64,000 bases of DNA, taken from the NCBI GenBank assembly GCA_037379345.1, contig CM074514.1:6696001-6760000 (forward strand). Reading direction: 5' to 3'. How positions within the stretch are numbered: the stretch's first letter is position 1; the number at the start of each line of letters is the position of its first letter. Made by a program: the position numbers. The DNA comes from Perna viridis. Taxonomy: Eukaryota. Below, one piece after another: positions 45,001 through 63,000 of this stretch.

Positions 45001-48000
45001 AAAAAGTTATATATTGAAGTTAAAATATTTTTTTCTGTTGTACTACATCAGAATTTACAATAAAGGACTTTTTGTGAAACCTATTTACTTAGGATCATAT
45101 TGAAAATGTGCATTTATTTTATTGTTGATTCTAAAGGAGCAGTGTAAGAATCGAAGGAATATTTTAGTATTATACTCATGAATTTACTAGAAATAACTTA
45201 ATTTGTTGAGGTTTACTCCAATAGTATGACAGTAAGTAAGCTGTGTGGCACACTGGTTGACCATTTCTCATAAAACTGTTTAATATTTGGTATAAAGCTG
45301 CAGATAGACAGTCCTTAAAATTGTTCAATATTTCTGTATACATTTTCTAATCAATAATTTACATAAGCAGGGATTTTTAGGAGTTGTGATGCTATTGAAT
45401 TCAATAATGATTTAAATTTGTGTTGGAAATCTTTGAAAAAGATAGTTTATACCTCATCTGTTGCATTTGTGCTGAAGGTACAAATAGAAGAAATGCACTT
45501 AGTTGAAAGGCAAAAGTTGTGCCCTTGAAAGAAAAAATATACTTTCATAATTGTTCCCACGATGCATTTCTTCATACTGCAGCTACTCTCAAAATGTAAT
45601 CTTTCATTTGTAATATTTGGGTCATGTTTGAGACCACATGTTTACAGCAGCTATCAAAAAGATCTAAATGATTCAACATAATCATATTATAAATTTTAAA
45701 GTAGCAGAGTTCTGATATGCAAAATCAATTTTTAATTTGCTTTTTACAAAAAATAGATGGTTCTCTGTGGTTATAACAGACTAATAGAATAACAAAGGGC
45801 TTAATTGTTTTACTTAATCCCCTGGATACATCAAAGTAACTGGTGTCACAAATAAACTCCAGTAACTTCTAGATAAAGGCAAACAATCAACAGGACAGAC
45901 CATGCCTGTCTGGAATTAACTATAGTAGGTTTAACATATGGGGGGGGGGGGGGGGGCGCTTGGATGACATGATTGATACTAAATGTAAGAGAAAGGTACA
46001 AACTTAATTGGCAGATTTTACATAAATATAATATTTTAACATGGAGAAGCAACACATGACGGCTTTATGTTGGCATTTTGACCTTAGTGACTTAGTACAT
46101 ACATATAGGTACAATATCAATTTATGATTACTGGTACTTATGTTTTGGGTCTATAAAACAAAATAATCCAACTCTATACAACACTAATGGTTGTTCAGCT
46201 ATGTAGAATATTGGCCAGTACATTTTATCTAAGCTGAACCCTAAATCTAGAACAGTTCTGAATCCTAACTCTACACAAACAGATTAACGAACAGAACACA
46301 CATTTCAGTCTGAAATTTAAAGACTAGTTTGGTTGTTATACTATGTAGCCTCTTTTGTTCTATAAATGCTAACATGGTTATTCAAGCCTGATGTTGTATC
46401 ATTACTATAAATCTAGTCACGTGTTATACTCATTTGCACAAATTATCATGATTGTTTATTTCTTTGTAAATATTGTTATAATATGTCAATAAAATATAAC
46501 ATAGACTTCAGTTTGTATGTTTTTGAACAGAAATGAATTATACGCCAAACATAGCAAAAACGTAAATGAATCGAAAGTAGATACTGCAGTACTTACAAAC
46601 TGTATTGGCACATCATATTTATCAACGATACTTACAGATGTTTCATAGTCTTGGGATGGTTTAGTCGTATGGCTAATATCAAGTCTATCTTGGGGTAAAA
46701 TGTTACTGCCAAACACAATTTGTTACATAAAAGAAGCAAAAAGAACTAATTTGACTGAAAGATTGAAGTAATAATTTCAAAACCATACCTAAGTTCCAAA
46801 CATGAAAGTTGGTCGACGAACTTTTTAGCTTATTTTATCATGATATTTGTCGCATATTCAAAGCAAAAAAAAAAATAAACATAAAACTATGATTTCTCTA
46901 AGAAATGTTTTTGTATTTACAATTGTTTTTTACGGACGATTCCGTCAATGTGATATGTAAGAACGAAGTCTTTCGTTGTGAGTTAGAAATGTAAAGTAAA
47001 CAACACTATAGAAGACTGTTATAACAATAGTATCCTTTGACGAAAAAGACAGCAAAATTTCCGAAAACTTGAACTTTTTGTGAAAACTCTTCGTTAGCTT
47101 TGTAAACGCGCACCGGTAGGGTAAGTGTTATCTGCGTTTGGCAAATAAAGCATTTGCAAAGATAGAGAAGTTAAGATTACTATGAAAGCCTTTATTACTT
47201 TTGCAATATCTTGAATATGTGTGAGATATGAAAATTCCACTTTGTAACGAAATGTGGTTGATGAATCATGTCATGTTTTTTGCGTTTTTTTTTCTGCTAT
47301 AAAAGCAGCTTTACATTCGTAAGCGCAGAACAAAATGGGCAATTAGGGTTCAAAGCCTCGAAAAGTGGTGGAAGGAATTTTTATCATTTTCTTACATCTT
47401 GGTGATTTGTGCAACGCTGCTTAATCTCACCAATATGTGTACGTGTTTTCGTTATTGAATTCCGTAATGGTTTTCGAGAACTTTCTAGCGAAAATGTTGA
47501 AAAGTAGGAATTGGCTAACATCAACTTCAGCCTACAGAATCCGAAGCATATTTTCCATATTAGGCACATTTCTATTTTTGTTCATTTTTTTTTCTTAAAG
47601 GGCTGGGCTTACCTTTCTGGGCTGCCGCTTTTCCATTCAAAGTATTATTGCTGTTAGAAAGATTCGTTCGATGACTTCTCACACTTTTCAGTAACTCCAG
47701 TACCCTTGGTTTTTTCGCATTTACGATTTTCAGCACTGCTACTTTTTGTTCCAAAAACTCTATTCTCTCCAACTTCCAGTTGAGGGAGGCACGTGCACTT
47801 TCGTAACTACCATCTGCTTCTAGACACCGTAATGTAAACAATAAAGCAAACATTACATAAAGCATGCTTCTGATTTCACTGATTCATCTATCTTTGATCT
47901 AACATTAACTAAAGTGTTGGGATTTAACATATGGTTATTCATATTCTATCTCGCTGACACTATGAATGTGGTGCATCATATGTACCGAGTTCAGTAAATC

Positions 48001-60000: not shown

Positions 60001-63000
60001 AACGATTGACATTTTAATGCCCTCTATACGTGTTAGACGTCAGCCACAGGCTGTAAGTTTTACAGGAGTCCAATAATTATTCGTACGTGCGTTCTGCAAT
60101 TATCAGTCATCCTTAACTAAAACTACTAATGGAAATAATTTCAGATTTCATGCAGGTTATGTAAAGAACATGATAAGTTGTACCGTGTGTGAGACATTCA
60201 GTTTGGTTGCACATCCACTTGCTTATAATTTTTGTGGGGGACATCTGTGATCTATGGACACTTTAATTTCAAAATTTAGGTCACTACTACACTAATTCGT
60301 TAGAAAAAAATAACTGAAATATTGTTAGATTTTATGTCGGTTGTTTTGTTTTGTTTTTTAAAAAGTCATACATGATATTTTTGTAAAAAAAATCAATACC
60401 GGGGCTTCTCAATATTCGTACTGCTATGATTCGTTATGTCTTTCTGTTCAGATTTCATAACCTCATTCTCATATTTAACAGATGCTACAATTAAGGAGAG
60501 ATACCGAAGACAACTGAGATCGACCAATCCCGCATTTTACGCCTATATGTCTGGTTCCGAGAATAAGCCAGGTCCACACCACACACTAATATTCGATCAC
60601 TTGATCACTAACCTCGGGAATAACTACAATAGATTCACCGGCGTCTTCAGTGCGAACCAAGCTGGATTGTACGTGTTTTCATATACAATTACGCCCGATG
60701 TAGGTGCCATAATGCCGGTTGAAATTGTAAAAAATTCAGACATCGTAGGATCATTGTTTGTACACGCCTACTCATCGTACCAGAGCGCCGCCTCATCAAC
60801 AGTTATTATTCAGATGAATGTTGGAGATGTTTGTTACATTCGAACAAGTACTACTACATCACCAGCAGGAAACGTCTATAGCAGCGATAAATCAAGGACT
60901 TCATTTTCCGGATGGCGTCTGGTATAGTTGAAACGATACAGAATGCTTTGGAAAAAGTTTTCAATCATATTTTTGTTGTTCTTTTGTTATTATCATTTAT
61001 ATTTTAACTAACATTATTGGTTTTTCCGTGTAATGGATAAAAAAACTGAAAAGGTATCCATACAAGCAAAGTTTTGTGCATTATCTCTTTCGTAAACTGG
61101 CAGAAACTTCAATAATTCTTTCTATTGAGATTTTGATTTTACTTTTTGATGCCTTAGAGTTGATAATGACATCTTTGTGTTCCTGATTGTGATCTTTATG
61201 ATTTTCTCTTTGTTTGGCGCTTTGTTTTTCCTGTTTTTTTTTAGATTAGCTTTACTGGCACCATATTTTCAAGTTATTGTAGTCACCTGTCGTTTAAGTT
61301 CCGATAAATATTTTCACACATTATGAGGCAGACAAAATCAGTGTCTACGGGACAAATGACTGTAGTTTTAAAAATGTTTCAAGTAAAAATTTATTTCGTC
61401 AAGAAAACGAAGATTCATTCAATCACTTTTTAAGCTCACCTGGCCATAGGCCATGTGAGCTATTGTCACCACTTGGTGTTCGTTGTCGTCGTCTGTCGTC
61501 GTCGTGGTTAACAATTCTTCACACATCTCCTTTGAAACTACTGAATGGCTTTGAATGAAACTTAATATGATTGTTTCTTAGAGTATCATGCACAAAATGA
61601 CTGTTTGGGTTTTTGATCTGTAAAAAAGACATGACCGCCATTACTAATAATAGAACATAAGGGTCAGACAGCAGTTTTTTGCATATATCTTCAAAACCGT
61701 TAGATTTAACTAAATTCTGACTGGGTATAAGTGTTCACCATGATGAGATCTATCTGTGATGTAATTTTGGTGATCTGTTGAGGTCTTACTAACCACTTCT
61801 AACGTTTCCATTACTTTACATGTTAAAAAAGTAATTTTCAAAGTTTCACTGCGAATTCCCAGGACAAATGACATCTTAAAGTTGCATACCATTGCGAAGC
61901 TTGGAAATTAAGGCTTTCAAAATCATCATGCTAATGGTGCGATGGTGGTCAAAATACATTTTTTTGCAAATAAGTCTTAAACAGTTGAATTTAGCAAAGT
62001 TCTGATGAGAGTTATATTGTTCAACATCAGAAGACCGACCTTTGCCAAAATTTACAAAATTGTTTGTTGTCTGTTTTAGGATTTATTGCACCAGACAGAT
62101 TTTTTGTCGTTTTAATGTGTACAACTCTCTGACACTAATTGCAACAAAATTTAATAAAAATTGGCATATTTTTTAGGGTTTCTTCCACAAACTGATCATT
62201 TAAAATTTTTCATGAGTAAAAAAAATATGGCCGTCGTTACCAAAAATAGAACATGCTTTTTTGCGTTTTTTCCCCTCAACTATAGAAGAATAATGAAAAT
62301 GAAAGCTACCATTAAGATAAACATAATATTCTGAGTTGACGGGAGTATTGAATTTTTTTTTTAGGCGGCCATTTTACGACCATTTTCACCAGTTGCTCCG
62401 ATTCCATATATGGGAAGCTATATAGGTGTTTTAAGTTGAATGGTGATGACGAAAGATTGTTCTGGGTGGCCATTTTCCCGCTAATTTTTATATTTGCCTT
62501 GATTTCAACGATAATTGTTTAATTCTCCTAATATGAATGGTAATGATGAAAATTTTGGATAGCCATGGTTTAACTTCATTTTATGTTCCTTTTCAGCAAA
62601 TCTATACTGGGCTAATGCCCTATCACACCTGGTGGAATAACAGGGCAAAGGGGACCCATGCCAAAATTTTTTCCAGAGGTTCTAAAACACTTTGAAGTCA
62701 TTTCCTACATTTTACAGTGCCTTACGTACTCTTTTTAACTTACAACATTCATCAATATATGCTCTTTTTCAGCAATTTTTTGTCCAACATGGTAACAAAG
62801 CATGGTACCGTTACTTACTTAGTAAATAGGATATGGTTTGTCAGGTGAGCAATTCAGGCTCTTCAAGAGCCTCTTTTTTTCCTTATCTAGCGTTAGCTTC
62901 CCAAGACTATGGCACCATTTCTAATAATCATTGTGTATTTCCAATGCAAGACTGAATAGCGTGAAATGCTTTGTTAATATATTAAGATTGTTTTTGTGCA

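What the first reader, a model, noticed from the sequence alone, without database searches (positions are those of the whole stretch)
47572..60927. Head-to-head pair of furin-site C1q-domain genes, duplicated as a unit: a candidate co-regulated two-subunit secreted system
Seen: genes A (minus) and B (plus) diverge from a ~1.3 kb spacer. Both have a signal peptide and coiled coil in exon 1, one phase-1 intron, then an RxRR site (RLRR, RYRR) just before a gC1q domain sharing PG.HHT.IF.H, although their N-termini are dissimilar. The same divergent A'/B' layout recurs 7-9 kb to the left, so the pair was the duplicated unit. Known: gC1q domains trimerise, can form heterotrimers (C1q A/B/C, cerebellins), and are greatly expanded in bivalves. 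Inference: A and B are co-expressed partners that assemble through the coiled coils and are cleaved to release free globular heads.
Basis: partly seen in the sequence, partly recalled or inferred. Interest (0 to 1): 0.75.

Follow-up and report, generated by a model that had tools for sequence, protein, structure and literature searches.

The report
Divergent mollusc C1q lectin gene pair
Two intact, back-to-back genes for secreted coiled-coil C1q lectin-like proteins sit beside a decayed older copy of the same pair, which is an ordinary piece of the large mollusc C1q gene expansion with two small untested twists.

Summary
Genes A (minus) and B (plus) are real and intact. Each has two exons and one phase-1 intron. 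Exon 1 gives a hydrophobic N-terminus and one long heptad-patterned helix. Exon 2 gives a short linker with RLRR or RYRR and a full C1q domain (Pfam E about 1e-20). The start codons are 1313 bp apart. This is the published 'sC1q-like type II' class, 262 of 476 C1q genes in the Eastern oyster, which is two-exon and tandemly clustered (PMC6835236).

The left 'pair' is only partly there. A' is a lone exon 1 with no C1q exon anywhere in the window. B' has a stop at codon 2, a truncated C1q domain and RHQR instead of RxRR. Their spacer is 3446 bp and holds a retroelement fragment.

The two-subunit idea is untested:
- For it: the A stalk is basic (net +7) and the B stalk acidic (net -10), as in A'/B', and the RxRR sites align.
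- Against it: a fixed-register g-e' count shows no penalty for homomers. Only about 100-150 bp next to each ATG is conserved between the two units. The second pair was not kept.

Verdict: new members of a known kind, of modest interest.

The parts
56544..56814 (-). Gene A exon 1: start codon, hydrophobic N-terminus (probable signal peptide), basic heptad-patterned helix
   Evidence: donor AAAG|GTAAGT; helix 2-87 at pLDDT 80.5; 7 of 2000 heptad shuffles reach the observed score; net charge +7 after residue 17
55784..56543 (-). Gene A intron, 760 nt, phase 1, splits a Gly codon
55344..55783 (-). Gene A exon 2: linker with RLRR, then a full gC1q domain and the stop codon
   Evidence: PF00386 E=1.6e-20, profile 2-127 of 127; human C1q, collagen VIII NC1, C1QL3; 7 of 8 canonical residues, 11 His
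56815..58127 (.). A/B divergent spacer, 1313 bp, with a 36-bp minisatellite at 57550-57793; only the roughly 100-150 bp next to each ATG is conserved with the A'/B' unit
58128..58428 (+). Gene B exon 1: start codon, hydrophobic N-terminus, acidic heptad-patterned helix, low-confidence tail
   Evidence: helix 2-83 at pLDDT 81.8, residues 87-100 below 50; 17 of 2000 heptad shuffles reach the observed score; net charge -10
58429..60481 (+). Gene B intron, 2053 nt, phase 1, with a 48-bp tandem array at 59675-59869
60482..60927 (+). Gene B exon 2: linker with RYRR (and an overlapping R..R), then a full gC1q domain and the stop codon
   Evidence: PF00386 E=1.4e-20; cerebellin-1, adiponectin, C1q; 8 of 8 canonical residues; nearest Atlas clusters are mollusc C1q
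47613..47865 (-). A' exon 1 only: open frame with conserved donor, 61% identical to A exon 1 (MAFFT; 59% by tblastn); no matching C1q exon in the window
47866..51311 (.). A'/B' spacer, 3446 bp, enlarged relative to the A/B spacer
48216..49943 (+). Degenerate reverse-transcriptase-like retroelement fragment inside the A'/B' spacer; coding capacity is spread over three overlapping reading frames
   Evidence: ORF list; sub-threshold RVT_1, E=0.033, 14.3 bits against a cut-off of 29.6
51312..51585 (+). B' exon 1: pseudogene, stop as second codon, otherwise in frame with a conserved donor, 58% identical to B exon 1
52025..52402 (+). Repeat-type ORF inside the B' intron (Atlas clusters partly carrying PF26215 HTH_animal)
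   Evidence: score 0.98; no Pfam family above cut-off
52790..53193 (+). B' exon 2: truncated gC1q, 88% DNA identity to B over 354 bp then unrelated sequence; RHQR in place of RYRR
   Evidence: profile 1-107 of 127; 5 of 8 canonical residues
53900..54400 (.). 57-bp (162-bp) tandem array between the B' end and the A 3' end

Best explanation
The region is a small piece of the lineage-specific C1q-domain-containing (C1qDC) gene expansion of a mollusc.

A and B are two intact, neighbouring, divergently transcribed genes of the common 'secreted C1q-like type II' class. In each gene, exon 1 encodes a signal peptide and an alpha-helical coiled-coil stalk. Exon 2 encodes a flexible linker and the globular C1q head. 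By analogy with the family, each protein is secreted and trimerises through its stalk and head. It then acts as a soluble lectin-like recognition molecule.

A segment of about 7-9 kb that carried both genes was duplicated in tandem long ago. Introns and flanks no longer align. The left copy has since decayed. A' keeps only exon 1. B' has a premature stop and a truncated head. Repeats have also been inserted into the left copy.

The R-x-R-R motif at the start of exon 2 of both intact genes is probably a proprotein-convertase site that can release a head of about 15 kDa, as in vertebrate CTRP12. This step is inferred, not shown.

Whether A and B also co-assemble is open. Homomeric assembly of each is the default reading.
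For: - Domain identity: Pfam C1q well above the cut-off for A and B. The closest solved relatives are human C1q chains, collagen VIII/X NC1, C1QL, cerebellin-1 and adiponectin. B keeps 8 of 8 and A 7 of 8 canonical residues (positions taken from PMC6409975).
- The nearest Atlas clusters are mollusc C1q proteins, scores 0.94-0.95.
- Stalk: single long helices, heptad periodicity above shuffles, no Gly-X-Y runs.
- Class, two-exon architecture and tandem clustering match PMC6835236 (sections 2.1-2.4 read). There, 262 of 476 genes are type II, six paralogs of 249-251 aa have one intron, and 297 of 476 genes are tandem duplicates. A and B are 236 and 248 codons by arithmetic on exon lengths.
- Old duplication with selection on the exons: only exons and promoter-proximal blocks align. 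dN/dS is 0.33, 0.63 and 0.32.
- Decay of the left copy.
- Convertase motif: aligned R..RR columns. It is rare in shuffles, 20 and 49 of 20000. It lies after the low-confidence end of the helix models. It is weakened to RHQR in the pseudogene.
- Precedent: furin cleaves CTRP12 at a KKXR motif to give a globular isoform (PMC12913486, passages read).
Against: - No transcript, protein or cross-species evidence could be obtained.
- The signal peptide was judged from hydropathy alone. No dedicated predictor was available.
- B has alternative phase-1 donor and acceptor sites.
- No AATAAA or ATTAAA lies within 600 nt after the B stop.
- Unequal dS between A/A' and B/B' does not fit one clean duplication without later gene conversion.
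- The left-hand position of the A' orphan exon means its C1q exon was lost afterwards. It was not simply left outside the duplicated segment.
- Cleavage at RxRR has not been reported for bivalve C1qDC proteins in the searchable library. Of 6 papers with 'C1qDC' and 'furin', I judged 4 by listing alone and read passages in 2, and none links the two in a bivalve.
Confidence: 0.8

Rival explanations
1. A and B are obligate partners. They are transcribed from a shared bidirectional promoter, co-assemble through a basic/acidic heteromeric coiled coil into mixed trimers, and are then cleaved to release hetero-trimeric heads. The pair is the unit of selection and of duplication, as with the collagen IV gene pairs.
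For: - Head-to-head layout, repeated in the same orientation in the older copy.
- Opposite stalk charge, kept in both copies: A +7 and A' +7, B -10 and B' -7.
- The best heteromeric heptad offset gives 4 favourable and 0 unfavourable g-e' pairs of 14, and it roughly aligns the two mature N-termini.
- The convertase motifs align.
- A sense-oriented TGACGY lies close upstream of the A, B and B' start codons (motif chosen after seeing the data).
- Many C1q-family proteins form heterotrimers (PMC6409975 discussion).
- Collagen IV genes lie in head-to-head pairs and their chains co-assemble into heterotrimers (PMC12141075, passages).
Against: - Homomers are not electrostatically penalised: A 1 favourable and 1 unfavourable of 7, B 2 and 0 of 7.
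- An earlier sliding-register count that looked stronger did not hold once the register was fixed.
- Two stalks having opposite charge is not rare by chance, and the A'/B' agreement is inherited, not independent.
- The centre of the spacer is not conserved between the units.
- Start codons are 1313 bp apart, against the usual limit of under 1000 bp between start sites (PMC3552671, abstract start as seen in the listing).
- The second pair decayed, and its halves decayed in different ways.
- dS differs between the A and B halves.
Confidence: 0.15
2. The RxRR motif is not a processing site. The proteins act full-length as stalked trimers or higher bouquets, and the basic residues are only part of a charged neck, for example for ligand or surface contacts.
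For: - Published descriptions treat the coiled coil as the oligomerising tail of the mature protein (PMC6835236 introduction and discussion).
- That paper has 0 occurrences of 'furin'.
- A stalk that is cut off would lose the multivalency that a bouquet gives.
- I have no information on the residues after the cut site that would favour cleavage.
Against: - The motif sits at the same aligned place in two paralogs that are otherwise 44% identical in the head and unalignable in the stalk.
- It is rare in shuffles.
- It lies between a helix and the first strand, where a protease could reach it.
- CTRP12 shows that the family can use this logic.
Confidence: 0.4
3. A'/B' did not arise by duplication of the pair as a unit. 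It arose by separate events, or the apparent unit reflects later gene conversion between neighbours in a larger cluster.
For: - dS is 0.80 for A/A' exon 1, against 0.44 and 0.27 for B/B' exons 1 and 2. By my own arithmetic on the pS and S values, with a binomial error, the pS values are 0.49 and 0.23 and differ by about three standard errors.
- A' lacks its second exon.
- The offsets differ: 8949, 6816 and 7692 bp.
Against: - The same order and orientation of three exons in both units is most simply one event.
- The differing offsets are explained by the inserted repeats.
- Gene conversion of B/B' alone would also lower its dS.
Confidence: 0.15

Closest known systems
Bivalve secreted C1q-like type II proteins (C1qDC family; Gerdol et al., Mar Drugs 2019, PMC6835236)
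   Same: - Signal peptide, coiled-coil tail and a single C-terminal gC1q domain.
- Two exons with one intron.
- Length of about 240-250 aa.
- Location in clusters of tandem paralogs, with exons more conserved than introns.
   Different: - The published clusters are described as mostly on the same strand. Here the two intact genes are divergent.
- A convertase-type RxRR in the linker and opposite stalk charges are not mentioned in the parts of that paper I read.
CTRP12 / adipolin (vertebrate C1q/TNF-related protein cleaved by furin)
   Same: A secreted C1q-family protein with a basic convertase motif N-terminal to the globular head. Cleavage yields a globular isoform with different oligomeric state and signalling (PMC12913486).
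   Different: - CTRP12 has a collagen-like stalk and a KKXR site in its N-terminal domain.
- There is no specific sequence relationship beyond the C1q domain.
- Cleavage here is only inferred.
Human complement C1q A/B/C, cerebellins, adiponectin/CTRPs (heteromeric gC1q assemblies)
   Same: They share a gC1q jelly-roll head that trimerises. They are the best solved-structure matches. Heterotrimers among paralogs are well known (PMC6409975).
   Different: Vertebrate C1q uses collagen stalks. From recall, not from a call, its three genes lie in one orientation. No evidence of mixed trimers exists for A and B.
Collagen IV head-to-head gene pairs (COL4A1|2, 3|4, 5|6)
   Same: Divergent pairs of paralogs whose products co-assemble into heterotrimers, with the pair itself duplicated (PMC12141075).
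   Different: - The COL4 pairs have been retained across metazoans and share short bidirectional promoters.
- Here the spacer is 1.3 kb and is not conserved in its centre, and the duplicated pair has decayed.

Membership tests
C1q domain (Pfam PF00386) | Profile match above the curated gathering score over the whole domain | tested here: met
   A 74.0 bits (profile 2-127 of 127) and B 74.2 bits (1-125 of 127) against a cut-off of 23.7. B' scores 51.7 bits but covers only positions 1-107 of 127.
C1q domain (Pfam PF00386) | [quoted passage not shown] | tested here: met
   by spacing: B 8 of 8; A 7 of 8 (Asp at the Asn position); B' 5 of 8.
C1q domain (Pfam PF00386) | Ten-strand jelly-roll fold forming trimers | not tested
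Secreted C1q-like type II (bivalve C1qDC classification) | N-terminal signal peptide | tested here: inconclusive
   mean hydropathy of the first 18 residues is +1.23 (A) and +1.03 (B), against -0.66 and -0.55 for the rest. No signal-peptide predictor was available.
Secreted C1q-like type II (bivalve C1qDC classification) | Coiled-coil region, not collagen, between the signal peptide and the C1q domain | tested here: met
   (single helices 2-87 and 2-83). (7 and 17 of 2000 heptad shuffles reach the observed score). (no Gly-X-Y runs). COILS, the method used in the paper, was not run.
Proprotein-convertase (furin-type) substrate | R-x-[KR]-R motif in a secreted protein | tested here: met
   one motif each, at the start of exon 2 of A and of B. 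None in the exon-1 translations and none in B'.
Proprotein-convertase (furin-type) substrate | Motif in an exposed, flexible segment | tested here: inconclusive
   The ends of the exon-1 models have low confidence: A residues 88-90, B residues 87-100. The exon-2 linker itself was not modelled because the exons were not joined.
Proprotein-convertase (furin-type) substrate | Observed cleavage after the motif | not testable with these tools
   Needs protein data.
Bidirectional-promoter gene pair | Head-to-head genes on opposite strands | tested here: met
Bidirectional-promoter gene pair | Transcription start sites less than 1000 bp apart | not testable with these tools
   The start sites are unknown. 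The start codons are 1313 bp apart. The criterion is taken from the PMC3552671 abstract start, seen in the listing.
Bidirectional-promoter gene pair | Shared regulatory sequence conserved between copies | tested here: not met
   Only separate blocks within about 150 bp of each ATG align between the A/B and A'/B' units.
Heteromeric C1q assembly (C1q A/B/C-like) | Chains found together in one complex, or a clear sequence-encoded preference for mixed trimers | tested here: inconclusive
   Opposite net stalk charge, but no g-e' penalty for homomers. No multimer modelling was possible.

The most novel reading that the evidence does not exclude
A and B form an obligate mixed trimer. A basic stalk and an acidic stalk, encoded by a divergent gene pair, zip together in the secretory pathway. 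A furin-type convertase then cuts both chains at the aligned RxRR sites and releases hetero-trimeric C1q heads. On this reading, the huge mollusc C1q repertoire would gain combinatorial recognition units through paired genes, using the same genomic logic as the collagen IV pairs.
Probability: 0.12. Interest if true: 0.6.

Novelty: new member of a known kind. Interest (0 to 1): 0.3.

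Why it matters
Mollusc C1qDC genes number in the hundreds, and how that repertoire is used is an open question. PMC6409975 states, for a related echinoderm lectin, that it is unknown whether paralogs form heteromeric complexes.

Two features could give concrete, checkable handles on repertoire diversification, if they proved to be general features of divergent type II pairs:
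- complementary stalk charge, which would bear on combinatorial assembly;
- a conserved convertase site, which would bear on processing into free heads.

As it stands, the locus mainly illustrates the known birth-and-death dynamics of the family. It holds two live genes beside one pseudogene and one orphan exon.

Tried and rejected
- I looked for the missing A' C1q exon with tblastn at E up to 50 and with blastn self-comparison. I also scanned minus-strand open frames with Pfam: 4 and 10 of the 42 frames of at least 45 codons. All were negative.
- A sliding-register count of charges at heptad positions e and g seemed to show a strong acid/base signature. I rejected it as an artefact of letting the register drift. 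With fixed registers, homomers are not penalised.
- I considered an alternative B donor (after 58365) and acceptor (before 60452). I set them aside because only the chosen sites are conserved in B'.
- Pfam on the exon-1 translations gave only sub-threshold coiled-coil-type matches such as bZIP_1 at 19.8 bits against a cut-off of 27.6. I read these as helix periodicity, not homology.
- Rfam (0 families) and tRNA (0 genes) scans of the window found nothing.
- Literature searches. 'C1q domain' with 'head-to-head' and 'tandem duplication' gave 0 papers. 'C1qDC' with 'furin' gave 6 papers, none on a bivalve cleavage site (passages of two read). A badly set search (any 2 of 5 terms) returned only furin papers and was useless. 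One search gave the CTRP12 and Modiolus leads. The Modiolus paper (PMC8706970, passages) reports a 19-kDa, 176-residue plasma C1qDC but nothing on precursor processing.
- Not used because not relevant to a metazoan locus: the prokaryote genome-contig scan, the phage, plasmid and E. coli collections, and the sigma-70 promoter scan.
- Unchecked because closed: the search for homologous proteins, the search of protein representatives, metagenome contigs, viral contigs and paper supplements. As a result, no orthologs or other family members could be examined for the motif, the stalk charge or the pairing. Supplementary File 1 of PMC6835236, the list of 476 genes, may bear on strand orientation.
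- The joined (spliced) proteins were never built, searched or folded. All searches and both folds were done exon by exon. Protein lengths come from arithmetic on exon coordinates.

Full report
WHAT IS IN THE SEQUENCE

The window has no N and is AT-rich, with 29-37% G+C. Three C1q-coding stretches exist and no more. They lie at 55347-55826 (minus), 60436-60924 (plus) and 52780-53190 (plus).

Two kinds of N-terminal exon each occur twice:
- A at 56814-56482 and A' at 47865-47605, both on the minus strand, 59% identical by tblastn.
- B at 58107-58442 and B' at 51321-51593, both on the plus strand, 55% identical by tblastn.

GENE MODELS

Reading the DNA gives these models.
- Gene A: ATG at 56814, exon 1 to 56544, donor AAAG|GTAAGT. 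A 760-nt phase-1 intron splits a Gly codon. The acceptor is TTTTTTAG|GC and exon 2 runs 55783-55344.
- Gene B: ATG at 58128, exon 1 to 58428, donor GTAAGC. The phase-1 intron is 2053 nt. The acceptor is TTTAACAG|AT and exon 2 runs 60482-60927.
- B has one other possible donor and one other possible acceptor, both also phase 1. Only the chosen sites are conserved in B'.
- By arithmetic on exon lengths, the coding regions are 711 and 747 nt.

Every search and fold was done exon by exon.

WHAT THE PARTS ARE

Heads. The exon-2 translations are complete C1q domains (PF00386, E=1.6e-20 and 1.4e-20). Their best solved relatives are human C1q chains, collagen VIII and X NC1, C1QL2/3, C1q-related factor, cerebellin-1, adiponectin and caprin-2. 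B keeps all eight residues said to be conserved in C1q proteins. A keeps seven, with Asp in place of Asn (residue list from PMC6409975). A and B heads are 44% identical. The nearest ESM-Atlas clusters for the B head are mollusc C1q clusters, automatically named 'heavy metal-binding protein HIP-like', 'cerebellin-3-like' and 'C1q domain-containing' (scores 0.94-0.95). This supports a mollusc origin.

Stalks. The exon-1 translations have no detectable similarity to each other. Both start with a hydrophobic stretch. Each, folded alone with its paralog as the only alignment row, gives one long helix (A 2-87, pLDDT 80.5; B 2-83, pLDDT 81.8). Hydrophobic heptad periodicity exceeds shuffles: 7 and 17 of 2000 shuffles reach the observed score for A and B. 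It is weaker in A' (787 of 2000) and B' (168 of 2000). There are no collagen repeats.

Convertase motif. R-x-R-R sits at the very start of exon 2 in both intact genes, in aligned columns. It lies 9 (A) and 8 (B) residues before the first conserved Phe. Shuffling each exon-2 translation puts an R.[KR]R in the first 16 residues 20 of 20000 times for A and 49 of 20000 times for B.

THE LEFT COPY

A' exon 1 is an open frame with the same donor as A. Nothing resembling a C1q exon follows it:
- No tblastn hit appears at E<=0.01, and nothing convincing appears up to E=50.
- The longest minus-strand open frame between 36000 and 47612 is 101 codons, whereas A's exon 2 needs 146.
- Pfam found no C1q in 10 open frames within about 4 kb downstream of A' exon 1, chosen from 42 frames of at least 45 codons. 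It also found none in 4 larger frames.

B' is a pseudogene:
- Its second codon is a stop.
- Similarity to B ends inside the head at 53140 and unrelated sequence follows.
- Pfam covers only profile positions 1-107 of 127.
- It keeps 5 of 8 canonical residues.
- The motif is RHQR.

The A'/B' spacer is 3446 bp, against 1313 bp for A/B. It holds a degenerate reverse-transcriptase-like fragment within 48216-49943. This fragment is spread over three overlapping reading frames and gives only a sub-threshold RVT_1 match. The B' intron carries a repeat-type ORF whose Atlas look-alikes partly carry PF26215.

HISTORY

Between the two units, only the exons and short promoter-proximal blocks align. DNA identity is 75% for A/A' exon 1, 78% for B/B' exon 1 and 88% for B/B' exon 2.

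Nei-Gojobori estimates from my own script are:
- A/A' exon 1: dS 0.80, dN/dS 0.33.
- B/B' exon 1: dS 0.44, dN/dS 0.63.
- B/B' exon 2: dS 0.27, dN/dS 0.32.

The duplication is therefore old. The exons of both copies were under constraint for much of the time, and the decay of the left copy is comparatively recent.

The order A'(-) B'(+) A(-) B(+) is most simply explained by one tandem duplication of a segment holding both genes. The unequal dS values then require either gene conversion between B and B' or more than one event. Because A' lies on the left and its missing exon would lie further left, that exon must have been lost after the duplication.

COMPARISON WITH WHAT IS KNOWN

[quoted passage not shown] They report the following for Crassostrea virginica:
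- 262 of 476 C1qDC genes (55%) are of this type.
- Six such paralogs of 249-251 aa have two exons and one intron.
- 297 of 476 genes are tandem duplicates, in clusters 'for the most part' on the same strand.

A and B fit this class in every feature I could test. That paper has no occurrence of 'furin', 'head-to-head', 'orientation' or 'pseudogene'.

In the searchable library, 6 papers hold both 'C1qDC' and 'furin'. From the listing and from the passages of two of them, none describes convertase cleavage of a bivalve C1qDC. No paper holds 'C1q domain', 'head-to-head' and 'tandem duplication' together.

The best precedent for cleavage is vertebrate CTRP12. Furin cuts it at a KKXR motif to give the main circulating globular isoform, which has a different oligomeric state (PMC12913486, passages). 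Its genes lie in head-to-head pairs and its chains form heterotrimers (PMC12141075, passages).

THE TWO-SUBUNIT HYPOTHESIS

I found one new point in its favour. After the signal peptide, the A stalk is basic (16 K+R against 9 D+E, net +7, pI 9.9). The B stalk is acidic (7 against 17, net -10, pI 4.5). The same holds for A' (+7) and B' (-7).

A first count with a drifting heptad register seemed to place the charges at positions e and g. With one fixed register per helix the picture is weaker:
- A homomer: 1 favourable and 1 unfavourable g-to-e' pair of 7.
- B homomer: 2 favourable and 0 unfavourable of 7.
- Best heteromeric offset: 4 favourable and 0 unfavourable of 14.

Mixed coils are therefore possible, but nothing in the sequence disfavours pure ones.

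On regulation, each gene keeps its own conserved block within about 150 bp of its ATG. The centre of the spacer is not conserved and holds a 36-bp minisatellite. The start codons are 1313 bp apart, while bidirectional pairs are usually defined by start sites less than 1000 bp apart (PMC3552671, abstract start in the listing). The true start sites are unknown.

A sense-oriented TGACGY lies 100-105 bp upstream of the A start codon and 45-50 bp upstream of the B and B' start codons. The window holds 19 such sites against 16.1 expected. I picked the motif after seeing it, so it is only a lead.

VERDICT

- The locus is an ordinary, well-explained piece of the mollusc C1qDC expansion: two live type II genes beside one pseudogene and one orphan exon.
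- A convertase site that releases heads of about 15 kDa is plausible. The heads are 139 and 138 residues, about 15.2 and 15.1 kDa. I put the chance of cleavage at about even.
- Obligate A/B hetero-assembly from a shared promoter is possible but weakly supported. I put it at about 0.12-0.15.

LIMITS

- Paper supplements were closed.
- No signal-peptide or coiled-coil predictor and no multimer modelling were available.
- The joined proteins were not built.

Noticed in passing
56914-56919 (-), 58078-58083 (+), 51263-51268 (+): A sense-oriented TGACGY (a CRE/bZIP-type half-site by recall) lies 100-105 bp upstream of the A start codon and 45-50 bp upstream of the B and B' start codons. The window has 19 sites against 16.1 expected. 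The motif was chosen after seeing the data.
   Followed up: partly
55347-55781 (-): The A head is histidine-rich, with 11 His of 145 residues against 4 of 147 in B. The nearest Atlas cluster for the B head is automatically named 'heavy metal-binding protein HIP-like'. A metal-binding role for A is a lead only.
   Followed up: no
57550-57793; 53900-54400; 59675-59869: Three minisatellites: a 36-bp unit x6.8 in the A/B spacer, a 57-bp (162-bp) unit between B' and A, and a 48-bp unit x4.1 at 97% identity in the B intron.
   Followed up: partly
48216-49943 (+): A degenerate reverse-transcriptase-like retroelement fragment lies in the A'/B' spacer. It is spread over three overlapping reading frames and gives only a sub-threshold RVT_1 match.
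   Followed up: partly
52025-52402 (+): A 125-codon ORF in the B' intron has Atlas look-alikes (score 0.97-0.98) in clusters of hypothetical animal proteins, 18-54% of whose members carry PF26215 HTH_animal. It is probably part of a dispersed repeat. It has no Pfam match above the cut-off.
   Followed up: partly
1-35000 (+), e.g. 30190-30531: The left half of the window has sustained positive GC skew. It has an ORF with a sub-threshold RasGEF match (E=0.0016, 18.8 bits against a cut-off of 23.1). It is probably part of a large multi-exon Ras/Rap exchange-factor gene on the plus strand.
   Followed up: partly
63237-63620 (-): A proline-rich 128-codon ORF lies to the right of gene B with no Pfam family. 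It is possibly an exon of a neighbouring gene.
   Followed up: no
60928-61527 (+): No AATAAA or ATTAAA lies within 600 nt after the B stop codon, whereas A has AATAAA 15 nt after its stop. The 3' end of B is therefore undefined.
   Followed up: no
5317-5798 (both strands): Overlapping ORFs of 133-149 codons on both strands have strongly repetitive translations. This looks like a coding-looking tandem repeat. A 137-bp stretch at 5174-5310 is 75% identical to 40374-40510.
   Followed up: no
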